DNA of 64,000 nucleotides. Origin: Bryobacterales bacterium (lineage in GTDB: Bacteria; Acidobacteriota; Terriglobia; Bryobacterales; UBA6623). Under the pieces are notes generated by a model that was given only the letters and a program-made list of their open reading frames with translations, was not told the DNA's origin and searched no databases. The stretch covers positions 1,472,001 through 1,536,000 of the forward strand of contig OY729428.2 of the NCBI GenBank assembly GCA_963422375.2. The letters run 5' to 3'. This document shows, one piece after another, positions 49,305-59,362 of this stretch (positions are counted from its first letter, which is position 1; each line of letters opens with the position of its first letter). The position numbers and the translations under genes are program-made.

Positions 49305-50534
49305 GGGAATCATATATCTGAGTTCCGACGACGCCATATCCGGCTAGAACTGCTCTGATTGGGGACGTCGGCGTCTTGCTCGGATCATTGGTGTGCGGCC
49401 GAGGTGGGCACCGAAAGGTCGGTTCGTATCTGAATCGCGCCGGCCAGCGGATTTCGCGGCGCACGGACTAAAGAGGCCGCCTCGGACACCCCGGTGGAAC
49501 CCGGCTTGCCGTGGAGAGGCTCCCCTTCCAGGGCGGCTGCATCTATGAATTGTCCGGGCTGGACACCGGTCGCGGCGCGGGATTCCGGATCCGGAGCGCC
49601 CTTCGCACCGGGCTTGAAGAGAGGCCGCAGCGGACCGGCTAGGCCGTGCTCGGGCCGCGACCACGGCCTTGCCGACAGGTCAGCGTCATGCCGACCAAGC
49701 CTCGCGCCATGCGCCGCATCCGTTCCGCCGTGTCGCCGTTGCGGGCGTTGCGCCGCCCCGCGAACTCCGTGAGGTAGCGGCCCACGTGACGGACGCTCAT
49801 CCGGTGATTGGTTCCGTAGAGGCCGCGCTTGAACAGGGACTGGAATGGCTCGATGCCGTTCGTATGCGCTGCCCCGCGCACGTACTCGCCGCCGGAGTGC
49901 TTGACGCCCTCGTGCGGGAACTCCGCCATGCCGGCGTGGGCCACCGCCTCGTCGGAGCGGACCTGCACGCCCGCCACGGGGGTCTTGCCGACCGGCCCGC
50001 GCCCGGCACGAGCGGACGCGCTGCGCCAGATGCACAGGCCGACTTCCGGCTTATGCCCGGGTCGCGGTGCAGCTTCATGCTGGAGACGTCCTTGAGGCCG
50101 GTGGTCAGCAGGAACAGGGCCACGGCCCGGACGCTGTAGCCGAGCTTGGTGTCGGCCATCATGCTGCCGGTGCGCACGGAAAAGCGCTTGCCGCAACCGC
50201 GGCAACGGTACGGCATCGAAGGGTGGGCCGCGCCAGACTGCACGCTGGAGCCGCGGCAGCGGGGGCATACCGGACCGTCCGGCCAGCGCATGGAGGCGAA
50301 CCACTTTTCCGCGGATTCGTCATCGGGGAACATGGCGATCACTTCAATCAAGATGGTGCCTTTACGAAACCACTTTCCGGGAACTTTCTTCTTCACCAAC
50401 GACCTCCCATATTGGAACTATTCAATCAAGAAACTCCACCGATTGTCAACAGATATCCGGAAGAACTATCAAATTAATTTATGGATTGATAATTTGCCAA
50501 ATCGGTTGTCTCGGCACTCAAGTATATAATTCCT
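49305..50534 (-). mobile_element. IS1595-family element type A, copy 2 (internally deleted; frameshifted transposase about 49639-50399)
   Basis: Degenerate TIRs gggaatcatatatctgagttccga / tcggcactcaagtatataattcc; homologous to 22086-23573. Confidence 0.88.
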
Positions 50535-50537
50535 ATT

Positions 50538-51570
50538 CCTGATTACCAACGAACGTCAGTCGAGGATATGCTCTACTGGAGGAGGTCGGAAACCTCTGAC
50601 AGGAAAGGGGATAGCAGCTGAAACGCAATCGCGTGCAATTCCAGAAGGGACTCAGTCCGGGCAAGTTCCTGCAGCGCTACGGCAGCGAGGGGCCATGCGA
50701 GCAGGCCGTCTTCAAGGCCCGCCGGCCGGACGGCTTCCGCTGCCCGGAGTGCGGCTCCCGGCGGCACTGCCGCATCCGCTCCCGCAAGCTCTGGCAGTGC
50801 CATGCCTGCCACCGCCGGACCTCCCTCGTCGCCGGCACGATCTTCGCCGCCACCCAGCTGCCGCTGACCGTCCGGTTCCTGGCGCTCCACCTGCTGACGC
50901 AGGGCCAGCACGGCGTTTCGTCGCTGGAACTGGCGCGGCAGCCGGGCGTGAGCCGGAACACGGCTTGGAAGGTGAAGCACAAGCTCCTGCAAGTGCTGAA
51001 GGAGCGCGACGAGCGCCTGCCGCCGGGCGGCATCGTGCAGGTGGACGACGCCTACCGGGGCGGGGAGCGGAGCGGCGGCAAGCGCGGTCGCGGCGCGGCG
51101 GGCAAGACGCCGTTCGTGGCCGCCGGGCAGGTCACCGCCGCCGGCCAGCCGGCAAGGATGCGCCTGAGCAGCGTGGCGGGCTTGCGCAAGAAGACGCTGG
51201 CAGCGTGGGCCGGGCGGCACTTGCAGCCCGGCACGGAGGTGCATTCCGACGGCCCGGCCTGCTTGCGGGGCGTGGCCGACGCCGGCTGCGAGCACGTGCC
51301 GACCGTCACCGGAGGCGGGCAGCGGAGCTGCGGGGATTCCCGCTTCGTCCGGGTCAGCACGATGCTGGCGAACGTCAAGCAGTCCCTGGCGGGAGCCTGC
51401 CATGCGCTCGACGGCAAGCACCTGCCGCGCTACCTCGCCGAGTTCCGCTACCGCTTCAACCGCCGCTACGATCTCGAGGCGCTGGTCCCCCGCCTGCTCC
51501 ACGCCTCCGTGCGCACCCCGCCCAGGCCTTACCGCCTCCTAACCTTGGCTGCGTCTTGTGGGTAATCAGG
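50538..51570 (+). mobile_element. IS1595-family element type B, copy 3 (transposase ORF 50633-51565)
   Basis: TIRs cctgattacc / ggtaatcagg; perfect 8-bp TSD ttcctatt (50530-37 / 51571-78). Confidence 0.94.
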
Positions 51571-53164: not shown

Positions 53165-55297
<2,133 letters not shown>

Positions 55298-55359
55298 TCG
55301 AATGTCGCCCGCCGAGGCACAGGGCCTCGCCCACCGTCGGCTGCGGGTATAGTTGAGGC

Positions 55360-55893
55360 GTGGCCTACATCGACACGGTCGCGCCGGAGCAAGCCGAGGG
55401 AGCGCTGCGGGCCGAGTACGCTGCGGCGCTGCGCCGCTCGGGCAGGGTCTGGAACATCCTCCGGATCATGAGCCCCAACCCGGCGGTCCTCAAGGCCTCG
55501 ATGGGTCTCTACATCGCAGCCATGCACGGCCCCTCGCCGCTGTCGCGAGCCCGGCGGGAGATGCTGGCCGTGGTCGTGTCCAAGGCGAACGGCTGCCACT
55601 ATTGAATCGAGGCGCATTGGCACGACCTCCGGGCCGAGGTCGATCCCGCGATCGCGGACCGCGTGCGCGAGGACTGGCGTACCGCCGGACTTGACGCGCC
55701 CGCGTGCGCGCTGCTCGCCTACGGGGAGAAGCTCGCCCTCACCCCTGCGGCTGTGACCTCGGACGACGTGCGGCGCTTGCGCGACGCTGGATGGAGCGAC
55801 CGGGCCGTTCACGACGCAGCCCAGGTTGTTGCATACTTCTCCTACATCAACCGCGTCGCGGACGGACTCGGCGTCGATGCCGAGCAGGTCTAG
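55360..55893 (+). CDS. AhpD/carboxymuconolactone decarboxylase-family peroxidase; predicted selenoprotein (CHYU, TGA at 55603-55605)
   Basis: ORFs 55360-55605 and 55663-55893 share one frame. REMLAVVVSKANGCHY-TGA-IEAH puts TGA at the second Cys of the family CxYC motif, and the frame continues to FSYINRVADGLG. Confidence 0.88.
55606..55644 (+). promoter_or_regulatory. Candidate bacterial SECIS element
   Basis: Hairpin GACCTC-cgggcc-GAGGTC (55624-55641); the loop begins after a 24-nt spacer from the UGA and has G at position 2. Confidence 0.6.
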
Positions 55894-55936
55894 GAAGAGC
55901 CGTCGGCTGGCTCATCGAGCGCCGTTCGCTTCCGGG

Positions 55937-57709
55937 ATGTCACGAATGCAGGTTTTCGGGCTACCGAGCAGGCCGTCCCCAGGAGTGCTTCCCGCGATCC
56001 GGCTGCTGGCGCTCTGCTTCGCCGTTCAGTGCTGGTCAGCCCCGCCCGAACTGATCCTGCACGGCGGCAAGATCGTCACCGTCGACCGGCAGTTCACGGT
56101 TGCCGAGGCGCTCGCCATCGCAGGCGGGCGTCTCGTCGCGGTCGGGAGCGACCGCGAAGTCACCGCGCTTGCGGGCGGCGGCACCGAAGTGATCGACCTG
56201 CACGGGAGGACGGTCCTTCCTGGCCTGTTCGACACCCATACCCACCCGCTCGGGGCGGCGACCTACGAGTTCGACCATGCCGTCCCCCACATGGATACGA
56301 TCGCCGACGTCCTCGAGTACTTCCGCGAGCGTGCGGGAGTTGTCCCCGAGGGGCAGTGGATTCGGTTGCAGCAGGTCTTCATCACGCGCCTCCGCGAGCA
56401 GCGCTACCCGACGCGTGCCGAGCTCGACAGCGTCGCGCCACGGCACGCGGCCTACTTCCGTACCGGGCCGGACGCCTCGCTGAATTCCCTCGCGCTCCGG
56501 CTCAGCGGCATCGACAAGGACTTTCGCGTCCCGCAGGGGGTCCTGGGACGCATCGAGCGCGACGAGAGCGGCGAGCCGACCGGCGTCGTCCGCAGCGGTG
56601 CCCACTTGATCGCGTTCCGCGAGAGCCGGCGGCTGCCCGAACGCGAGGACAAGCGCCAGCGGCTCAAGGCGCTGCTGGCGGCCTACAACGAGGTCGGCCT
56701 GACCAGCATCGCCGACCGCAACGCGAGCTCCGAGGCCGTCGAGCTCTACGAAGAACTGCTCGCGAGAGGCGAGCTCACCGCCAGGGTGTTCGTCAGCGCG
56801 GCAATCGACGCCCAGGAGCCCCTCGAGGACATCGCCTCCGCCGTCGCCAAGCTGGCCCGGCATCCCAGGCACGCCTACGATCCGATGCTGTGGGTGCGAG
56901 GCATCAAGTTCTTCATGGACGGCGGCATGCTCACCGGGAGCGCCTACATGCGCGAGCCTTGGGGCGTCAGCGACGTCTACTCGATTACCGACCCGAGCTA
57001 TCGCGGGTTGCGATTCGTGGGCCCGGGCAAGGCCTACGCGATTGCGCGCATGGCGCTGGCGAGCGGGCTGCAGCCCACGGCGCACTGCGTCGGAGACGGA
57101 GCGGTGCATGCGCTGATCGACGCGTACGCCGAAGTAGACGACGAGTTCCGTGTGCGGGAGATGCGCCCGTCCATCACGCACTCGAACTTCATGAGCCCCG
57201 CGGCGATCCGGCGGATGGCGGAAATCGGCATCGTGGCCGACCTGCAGCCCGCGTGGCTCGAGCGCGACGGCGCCACTCTTCTCAAGCAGTTCGGAGAGGC
57301 CCGCCTGCGCTACTTCCAGCCGTACCGCAGCCTGCGGGAAGCCGGGGTGGTCGTGGGCGGCGGCTCGGACCACATGCAGAAGATCGGCAGCATGCGCTCG
57401 ATCAACCCGTACAACCCGTTCTTCGGCATGTGGATCGCTATGACGCGCCGGCCGCGCTGGACGGACGCGGTGATGCAGCCGGAACAGCGCCTCAATAGGG
57501 AACAAGCGATCCGCCTCTACACCACGGGCAGCGCGTTCATCACGTTCTCCGAGGGCGAGAAGGGCTCGCTGGAGGCCGGGAAGCTGGCCGACTTGATTGT
57601 GCTGGACCGAGACATCCTTGAATGCCCCCTCGAAGAAGTCAGGGACATATCCGTCGAGCGAACTTACCTCGGCGGGGATCTGATCTACGCTGCCGGCAAG
57701 GGCGACTGA
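55937..57709 (+). CDS. Amidohydrolase 3 family (YtcJ-like), secreted; start approximate
   Basis: PGLFDTHTH, KFFMDG, HCVGD, THSNF, GGSDH and GSLEAGKLAD motifs. Confidence 0.92.
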   Translation: MSRMQVFGLPSRPSPGVLPAIRLLALCFAVQCWSAPPELILHGGKIVTVDRQFTVAEALAIAGGRLVAVGSDREVTALAGGGTEVIDLHGRTVLPGLFDTHTHPLGAATYEFDHAVPHMDTIADVLEYFRERAGVVPEGQWIRLQQVFITRLREQRYPTRAELDSVAPRHAAYFRTGPDASLNSLALRLSGIDKDFRVPQGVLGRIERDESGEPTGVVRSGAHLIAFRESRRLPEREDKRQRLKALLAAYNEVGLTSIADRNASSEAVELYEELLARGELTARVFVSAAIDAQEPLEDIASAVAKLARHPRHAYDPMLWVRGIKFFMDGGMLTGSAYMREPWGVSDVYSITDPSYRGLRFVGPGKAYAIARMALASGLQPTAHCVGDGAVHALIDAYAEVDDEFRVREMRPSITHSNFMSPAAIRRMAEIGIVADLQPAWLERDGATLLKQFGEARLRYFQPYRSLREAGVVVGGGSDHMQKIGSMRSINPYNPFFGMWIAMTRRPRWTDAVMQPEQRLNREQAIRLYTTGSAFITFSEGEKGSLEAGKLADLIVLDRDILECPLEEVRDISVERTYLGGDLIYAAGKGD

Positions 57710-57798: not shown

Positions 57799-58938
57799 CT
57801 AGAATCGCGAGGCCATCCGGCGGGCGATGCGGTCGTTCGCCGCCTGGATCAGGGCCACGTTTTCCGCATCCGGTCTCTCGAATTCGTCAAGCAGACCGCG
57901 TCGACGGGCCTTGTTGCGCTGGTACGCGCCGCAGAGGTGGAATCCGATGCATCCGGGGTTCTCGTACAGCCCCTCGAGGACCTCCGCGTACCATTCCCCG
58001 TTGTTCCGAACGAACCCGCCCGACGGGTCAGGCGGCTGGATCTTCGCCGCGTCGGCCAGCAACACCGGCTTGCCCGTCCGCTTGTGCCAGTCGGCGAGAT
58101 AACCAAGCGGCTCGCGGAAATCCTGGAACGCTAGGACGTCGACGTACGGCAGCGCGGCCTCCACGACCTCGGCCGCGATCGGCGCGTTCGCCTCGTAGCG
58201 GTCGCCGAGGATCAGATGGTGCGGGTCGTGGCGGCGGATGGCGTCGTGCGTAGTCTTGTAGTACCGGACGGCCAGCTCGGCGAGCTCCCTGCGCCCGGAT
58301 TCCGCCTTGAGCCTCTCTGGATCGAAGATCGGCCCGCGCCATTCGTTGTGTGCCCGAGTATGGATCCACGTCGGGCAGTCGCTGTAGAAGTACCCCACAA
58401 GATTGGGGTCCACGCTCAGCTCTGCGCAGTGCGAGCGCGCAACGTAGTCGGTCCAGTCCTCCCATTCCGAGTTGCGGAAATCGAAGTTCCGAGTGTGCTG
58501 CTCCCACTGGTGCGATTCCGTGAAGGGCAGCAGGTGGCAGAACGGCAGGCCGAGGGCCCTGTACTCGTCGTTCGTGAACGGTCGCGAGTGTCGCCACTGC
58601 CTCACGGTGACTTCCTGCACCCAGCCGACCGTGTTGAAGCCCCATTGCTTCAGGTTGGGGACGACCGACTCCTTGATCCACCTCGTCGTGCTGCCGCCGT
58701 ACTTCTCGCGCCAGATTTCGATGTTCTCGGGGTACCGGAGGCTCGCGGGGTCGATGTGGTTGAGGCCGATGGAGAAGAACGGACGTCCCTCGGGCGTGGC
58801 GAGCCACCAGTGTCCGTCGCGCTGCGTGAGAGTGAAGAAGCCCCCGGGATTGGATTGGGTCGTTGTTGCAGCCCCTGTCCGCGGGTGGACGCCGGCCCCG
58901 AGAATGGCCGCGCAGTGAAGGAACTGTCGTCGGTTCAT
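57799..58938 (-). CDS. Agarase-like glycoside hydrolase (GH50/clan A-like), Tat-exported
   Basis: MNRRQFL signal; HWWLATPEGRPFFSIG, WGFNTVGW, DPHHLILGDR and CIGFH motifs resemble GH50 beta-agarases. Confidence 0.75.
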   Translation of the reverse strand: MNRRQFLHCAAILGAGVHPRTGAATTTQSNPGGFFTLTQRDGHWWLATPEGRPFFSIGLNHIDPASLRYPENIEIWREKYGGSTTRWIKESVVPNLKQWGFNTVGWVQEVTVRQWRHSRPFTNDEYRALGLPFCHLLPFTESHQWEQHTRNFDFRNSEWEDWTDYVARSHCAELSVDPNLVGYFYSDCPTWIHTRAHNEWRGPIFDPERLKAESGRRELAELAVRYYKTTHDAIRRHDPHHLILGDRYEANAPIAAEVVEAALPYVDVLAFQDFREPLGYLADWHKRTGKPVLLADAAKIQPPDPSGGFVRNNGEWYAEVLEGLYENPGCIGFHLCGAYQRNKARRRGLLDEFERPDAENVALIQAANDRIARRMASRF

Positions 58939-59362
58939 GGCCGGTGGCGGTCGTCTGGCCACCCATCGAATGATACACCTGATTCCTCCAATCGTACCCG
59001 CGAGAGGCCATGAGCGGGAGCCCGCACGACCTGTGCGGTCTGGCCGCCGCTACTCGATTCGCCCCGACCTTCCGGCCAAGATCTTCCGGCCAAGATGAGG
59101 CCTGCCTGCGGGCAGCTTCTGACGACAGTCCAAGCGAGCACCGCTGATCGGTGCCAGGTTCGAGCGCCTCTCGGGTGTACCATGAGCGGTGAACTGCGTA
59201 TGCACGCCGATTTCAGGTGGCGCGCCCGCCCTGCGGGTGCAGGCGGCTAACGCCGGGAATTCCGCGAGGTCGCTATCGAACTGCGCGGGCGCGCTTGCCG
59301 GCGAGCTCGGAGCAGCTTGGGCCGGGTCGCCGGGCCCGGCCGACCACCTCGGAACGTGTCGC

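What the first reader, a model, noticed from the sequence alone, without database searches (positions are those of the whole stretch)
55360..55893. Hidden AhpD-like selenoprotein (CxxU) with a SECIS-like hairpin, split into two ORFs by standard calling
Seen: a single in-frame TGA (55603-55605) sits in NGCHY-TGA-IEAH, and the frame continues without stops through the family C-terminus (177 aa in total). A 6-bp hairpin with a G-containing loop follows after a 24-nt spacer. Known: AhpD/CMD peroxidases use a CxxC motif, Sec-containing AhpD-like proteins are a described bacterial selenoprotein family, and bacterial SECIS elements lie just 3' of the UGA. Inference: this organism recodes UGA as Sec in a thiol/selenol peroxidase. 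No selA/B/C/D genes are visible in this window.
Basis: partly seen in the sequence, partly recalled or inferred. Interest (0 to 1): 0.85.

Follow-up and report, generated by a model that had tools for sequence, protein, structure and literature searches.

The report
Ordinary AhpD-like selenoprotein gene, mis-split
What gene callers cut into two short fragments is one 177-codon reading frame whose internal stop codon is very likely read as the rare amino acid selenocysteine, giving a likely antioxidant enzyme of a bacterial family known since 2005, so the call corrects an annotation but is ordinary.

Summary
Window 55360-55893 (+) is one frame with a single TGA (55603-55605) in the motif C79-H-Y-U82. 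Read through, it scores 134 bits against TIGR01926 (cut-off 81.8); each fragment alone falls below the cut-off. The genome has selA, selB, selD and tRNA-Sec. TGA sits at this column in 78 of 79 close homologous loci, and solved relatives have Cys there. In a phylum sample, all 71 genomes with a TGA-containing match have selA and/or selB; the 6 lacking both have only stop-free copies. A 7-bp hairpin (loop 24 nt after UGA) meets the published bacterial SECIS rules and shows frozen synonymous codons and compensatory changes, though it folds no better than shuffles. The AhpD relay residues are kept, and the model matches Deinococcus DR1765. 'AhpD-like protein, TIGR01926, CxxU' is a listed selenoprotein family, and this scan already reported it in six other genomes. 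Small extras: a likely leaderless promoter and SECIS hairpins in three registers within the family. Substrate and read-through are untested.

The parts
55360..55893 (+). AhpD-like (TIGR01926) selenoprotein gene, 177 aa, GTG start, TAG stop
   Evidence: GTG at the same place in 19 of 20 same-genus loci
55603..55605 (+). in-frame UGA, inferred Sec82, second position of CxxU
   Evidence: Cys in solved homologues
55623..55642 (+). bacterial SECIS upper stem-loop: 7 bp, 6-nt loop with G at loop position 2, loop 24 nt after UGA, -10.5 kcal/mol
   Evidence: model constraints from PMC13188914
55558..55617 (+). catalytic helix-turn-helix: Glu67, Cys79, Tyr81, Sec82, His86 (spacing of the AhpD proton relay)
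55348..55353 (+). TATAGT, a -10-like hexamer 6 nt before the start codon; likely leaderless promoter (inferred)
   Evidence: TANNNT 4-8 nt before the start in 17 of 20 same-genus loci against about 1% background; the sigma-70 consensus scan found no full promoter

Best explanation
The two annotated fragments lie in one 177-codon frame whose in-frame UGA is very likely decoded as selenocysteine, giving a predicted AhpD-fold CxxU oxidoreductase that likely works as a stand-alone antioxidant peroxidase or disulfide reductase. Shown: the frame, the motif, the Sec genes, the conservation of the TGA and hairpin, and the family match. Inferred: SelB loaded with Sec-tRNA binds the hairpin 17-37 nt downstream and inserts Sec82. 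Inferred: the Glu67-His86 relay activates the Sec82 selenolate, which attacks a peroxide or a partner's disulfide, and Cys79 resolves it to a selenenylsulfide. Inferred from Mycobacterium AhpD: a lipoyl/lipoamide-dehydrogenase route re-reduces it with NADH. The gene is likely transcribed alone as a leaderless mRNA. Confidence is about 0.95 for Sec decoding and about 0.7 for the peroxide/disulfide-reductase role.
For: TIGR01926 134.2 bits over residues 3-173, cut-off 81.8; fragments score 46.4 and 60. selA 515.8 bits, selB 345.6, selD 299.7 and tRNA-Sec 73.9, all over cut-off. 19 of 24 same-genus genomes match, each with one TGA. TGA at column 82 in 78 of 79 loci. 71 of 80 tested phylum genomes have a TGA-containing match: 67 have both selA and selB, 4 have one. 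The 6 genomes lacking both have only stop-free matches (counted by eye). Stem codons D89, L90, R91 and E93 are single in 19 of 19 genus sequences, while other conserved columns average a 0.65 top-codon share. Stem 88% paired in 62 sequences, 17 cells with double changes, 0 of 500 shuffles. Model pLDDT 96.8, TM 0.90-0.92 to 3c1l and 6k40. Relay residues conserved and spaced as in M. tuberculosis AhpD and PA0269. A DR1765 mutant is H2O2-sensitive and rescue depends on its CxxC (review PMC8945050). Two lipoamide dehydrogenase genes over cut-off.
Against: There is no direct evidence of read-through or activity. The hairpin is no more stable than shuffles. The covariation control ignores relatedness, and the structure came from the query. 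No AhpC reaches its cut-off in this genome (best 50.8 of 272 bits), so the textbook AhpD-to-AhpC role lacks its partner. No conserved redox neighbour was found. The gene was not found in 5 of 24 same-genus genomes, all at least 95% complete, so it is dispensable. Loci were the best-scoring hits and are related to each other, so the counts are not independent.
Confidence: 0.9

Rival explanations
1. The gene is a selenoprotein, but its substrate is not a peroxide or protein disulfide. It would reduce a small molecule, for example by reductive dehalogenation like the CMD-fold debrominase Bmp8.
For: Bmp8 shares the fold (TM 0.78-0.82) and matches the family profile (E 1.7e-8). No AhpC is present. 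That Sec-dependent deiodinases use related chemistry is recalled, not from a call.
Against: Peroxidase-related proteins match far better (E 1e-37 to 1e-49, TM 0.85-0.92). No halogen-metabolism neighbour appears among the 10 neighbour representatives scanned. TGA forms occur across the phylum and in three other phyla.
Confidence: 0.07
2. UGA is a true stop and the gene is expressed as two polypeptides that reassemble, or as an 81-aa product.
For: Both fragments are on record as proteins. 16 of 19 genus sequences have Val right after the TGA, 15 of them GTG, which could restart translation.
Against: This copy has ATC after the TGA, and the next codon varies widely in other lineages. The stop would remove the nucleophile itself. 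TGA forms track selA/selB. The stop is never TAA or TAG at this column in 79 loci, although TAG and TAA end 47% of 2304 long genes here.
Confidence: 0.02
3. The TGA is a nonsense mutation in a pseudogene, or a sequencing error.
For: One same-genus copy (G003) is frameshifted by a 2-nt insertion in the hairpin loop, so decay or long-read errors occur.
Against: The same codon occurs in 78 of 79 loci, at identities down to about 30%. Three contigs from public runs are identical to the window.
Confidence: 0.01

Closest known systems
AhpD-like selenoprotein family (AhpD-like 1; COG2128 / TIGR01926; CxxU)
   Same: Same NCBIfam model over cut-off and same motif. Listed as 'AhpD-like protein, TIGR01926, CxxU' in a 2026 review (PMC13188914), with 27 sequences in the Sargasso Sea survey (PMC1088965) and 299 in GOS (PMC2398784).
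   Different: Nothing that defines the family. This copy is unannotated; a relative's 81-aa fragment is filed as 'hypothetical protein'.
Deinococcus radiodurans DR1765 (PDB 6K40) and the Cys-type peroxidase-related proteins 3C1L, 2OYO, 2PFX, 2PRR
   Same: 26-35% identity, full-length fold, TM 0.85-0.92; CxxC aligned with CxxU.
   Different: Cys instead of Sec at the second position.
Mycobacterium tuberculosis AhpD
   Same: Profile positions 60-104 align with residues 111-156. Glu118, Cys130, Cys133 and His137 correspond to Glu67, Cys79, Sec82 and His86.
   Different: Distant (TM 0.54). His132 is Tyr81 here, as in PA0269. No AhpC partner in this genome.
NF041238 AhpD-related (seleno)protein
   Same: Also an AhpD-fold CxxU family.
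   Different: 57.9 bits against a cut-off of 175 and a 357-position model: not a member.
Bmp8 debrominase (PDB 6OHI/6OHJ)
   Same: Same CMD fold, TM about 0.8.
   Different: 19-21% identity. Active-site residues were not compared because the paper was not held.

Membership tests
AhpD-like selenoprotein (TIGR01926/COG2128, CxxU) | Scores above the TIGR01926 cut-off as one chain | tested here: met
   134.2 against 81.8 bits
AhpD-like selenoprotein (TIGR01926/COG2128, CxxU) | CxxU motif with UGA aligned to the second Cys of homologues | tested here: met
AhpD-like selenoprotein (TIGR01926/COG2128, CxxU) | All-helical AhpD/CMD fold | tested here: met
   predicted model
Bacterial selenoprotein gene | Genome encodes SelA, SelB, SelD and tRNA-Sec(UCA) | tested here: met
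Bacterial selenoprotein gene | bSECIS: loop 3-9 nt, stem 4-16 bp, G in first two loop positions, 16-37 nt spacing, energy at or below -7.5 kcal/mol | tested here: met
   loop 6, stem 7, G at position 2, spacing 24, -10.5 (rules). Checked with my own script, not bSECISearch.
Bacterial selenoprotein gene | Sec actually present in the protein | not testable with these tools
   needs 75Se labelling or mass spectrometry
AhpD (M. tuberculosis type, TIGR00777) | Whole-protein score above cut-off | tested here: not met
   21.1 against 191.95 bits
AhpD (M. tuberculosis type, TIGR00777) | Glu / Cys / Cys / His proton relay | tested here: met
   E67, C79, U82, H86
AhpD (M. tuberculosis type, TIGR00777) | AhpC partner in the genome | tested here: not met
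   best TIGR03137 score 50.8 against 272
NF041238 AhpD-related (seleno)protein | Score above cut-off | tested here: not met
   57.9 against 175 bits
Bmp8-type debrominase | Substrate-pocket residues and dehalogenase activity | not tested
   only fold and profile similarity seen

The most novel reading that the evidence does not exclude
This large, almost wholly Sec-type branch of the CMD fold is not a general peroxidase but a selenol-dependent small-molecule reductase, a bacterial counterpart of deiodinase chemistry related to the debrominase Bmp8. It would give many uncultured Acidobacteriota a hidden dehalogenation or detoxification enzyme that annotation has cut in two.
Probability: 0.07. 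Interest if true: 0.6.

Novelty: new member of a known kind. Interest (0 to 1): 0.15.

Why it matters
It fixes a systematic annotation error: TGA-containing copies turned up in 71 of 250 sampled genomes of the phylum, and relatives are filed as truncated 'hypothetical' or 'peroxidase' fragments. The family's substrate was not found reported for a Sec form in the papers I saw, so the protein is a usable candidate for biochemistry. The alternative SECIS registers give a natural test set for how a coding-region SECIS moves. None of this is a new kind of system.

Full report
1. Observation. The window reads GTG at 55360, one TGA at 55603-55605 and TAG ending at 55893: 177 residues with NGCHY-U-IEAH. 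Standard calling gives 81-aa and 76-aa pieces, and both are on record as proteins. The joined chain scores 134.2 bits on TIGR01926 over residues 3-173 (cut-off 81.8); the pieces score 46.4 and 60. Three contigs from public runs cover 55200-56100 with no difference; one may be the source of this DNA, and a fourth run laid no reads.

2. Sec machinery. The 6.0-Mb genome (96% complete) has selA, selB and selD over their cut-offs and one tRNA-Sec with anticodon UCA. SelD has a long N-terminal extension and a CxxC motif with no internal stop, which fits the Ndh-SelD fusion described in PMC2398784. Other in-frame TGA genes with downstream hairpins exist: a formate-dehydrogenase-type gene, a BCP-type peroxiredoxin (TxxU), a Prx-like UxxC protein and an OsmC-like protein. 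The nearest named record is a Bryobacterales MAG at 73% identity; placing this genome in Acidobacteriota is my inference from that.

3. Homologues. 19 of 24 same-genus genomes match, each with one TGA. I examined 80 loci, the top hits of four searches including this gene, leaving out one duplicate and one locus of Cys-type paralogues. 79 covered column 82: 78 have TGA and 1 has TGC. Solved homologues have Cys there. In a phylum draw, 82 of 250 other genomes matched. I tested 80 of them, dropping two whose match does not cover the column. 71 have a TGA inside a match; I confirmed the column only for the 29 loci fetched. Of the 71, 67 have selA and selB and 4 have one of them. Of the 9 with only stop-free matches, 6 have neither gene (counted by eye). 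Among 40 close relatives, two lack both genes; one has a stop-free match and the other none. Kin are not independent, so these are patterns, not p-values.

4. SECIS. The stem pairs 55623-55629 with 55636-55642 around loop CGGGCC. The loop starts 24 nt after the UGA and the hairpin energy is -10.5 kcal/mol, which meets the four constraints in PMC13188914. Against it: the region folds no better than shuffles. For it: 76 of 79 loci pass my hairpin test at the UGA, against 26% of control positions; the three failures include the Cys locus. In 19 genus sequences the stem codons are frozen while the loop's wobble base varies. In 62 sequences (of 73 prepared; most near-duplicates, the distant clade and the Cys locus left out) the stem is 88% paired, with double changes at 3 of 7 pairs; the shuffle control ignores relatedness. 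The family uses three registers. Of 77 rows, 55 have the loop at +24/25, 10 have it at +16 to +18, and 2 can form both. A distant clade of 9 uses a different hairpin. The same CUCC is the 5' arm in the first register and the 3' arm in most of the second. A quick tree needs at least 3 changes for the second register.

5. Protein. The model (Sec folded as Cys; 58-sequence alignment) has pLDDT 96.8 and matches 3c1l, 6k40, 2prr and 2oyo at TM 0.86-0.92. Position 82 and His86 are invariant, and Glu67, Cys79 and Tyr81 are at least 90% conserved. The spacing equals the relay Glu118, Cys130, His132, Cys133, His137 of M. tuberculosis AhpD, and Glu36, Cys48, Tyr50, Cys51, His55 of PA0269 (PMC3141380; register). 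Sec therefore replaces the Cys133 equivalent; that this residue is the attacking nucleophile is recalled. A review reports that loss of DR1765 (6K40) sensitises Deinococcus to H2O2, that rescue needs its CxxC, and that AhpD is reduced through lipoyl proteins (PMC8945050). This genome has lipoamide dehydrogenases but no AhpC over cut-off.

6. Context. The flanks are a fatty-acid-oxidation-type gene (53165-55297) and an amidohydrolase; neither travels with the gene. TATAGT lies 6 nt before the GTG, and TANNNT sits 4-8 nt before the start in 17 of 20 genus loci with differing upstream genes (background about 1%). The motif also peaks 6-7 nt before candidate starts genome-wide. A leaderless, stand-alone transcript is the likely reading; it is untested.

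7. Known families. 'AhpD-like protein, TIGR01926, CxxU' is a catalogued selenoprotein family (PMC13188914; PMC1088965; PMC2398784; PMC1794560; PMC13326102). It is a member by every feature I could test. It is not TIGR00777 AhpD or NF041238. Earlier notes of this scan gave the same verdict for six other genomes, seen after I had reached mine. For all papers cited I saw search listings and keyword passages only; PMC6300522, PMC11429811, PMC10821248 and PMC12516962 were also seen as passages and changed nothing.

8. Verdict. Real, well supported and ordinary. Interest 0.15.

Noticed in passing
L021-L101, 16-40 nt after the UGA: SECIS hairpins of this family occur in three registers. The same CUCC is the 5' arm in one and the 3' arm in another, two Armatimonadota-type sequences can form both, and the quick tree needs at least 3 switches. 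I did not find this described in the passages read, but did not search for it specifically beyond.
   Followed up: partly
window 55348-55353 +: Conserved -10-like hexamer 4-8 nt before the GTG in 17 of 20 genus loci: likely leaderless mRNA; similar signal genome-wide.
   Followed up: partly
G000 C1:502486-502998 (-), C2:884178-885245 (+), C2:715902-716360 (-), C2 near 2609580 (-): Further likely selenoproteins: BCP-type Prx (TxxU; TGA in 24 of 24 genus genomes), Prx-like UxxC fused to a DsbD-N-like domain, OsmC-like protein (TGA in 23 of 24), and a formate-dehydrogenase-type subunit.
   Followed up: partly
G000 C1:451778 (+), C2:1937374 (+), C2:3590723 (+), C2:135146 (+), C1:850817 (+): In-frame TGA with coding-like sequence on both sides from my genome scan. 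The rest may be broken genes or adjacent genes.
   Followed up: no
L011 (G000 C1, about 1373200-1375440 +): SelD with a long flavoprotein-like N-terminal extension and CxxC, no Sec codon.
   Followed up: partly
L040:1770-1780: The G003 copy has a 2-nt insertion in the SECIS loop that shifts the frame: pseudogene or long-read error.
   Followed up: partly
L120:1441-1770 +: A second, Cys-type CMD protein matching TIGR04169 (arsenosugar biosynthesis-associated peroxidase-like) over cut-off.
   Followed up: no
window 49385-51565: Two transposase-like frames (50633-51565 + and about 49500-50400 -, the second apparently broken), resembling IS1595-type by recall only.
   Followed up: no
window 57799-58962 -: 387-aa ORF with a Tat-like leader and no Pfam or NCBIfam hit.
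   Followed up: no
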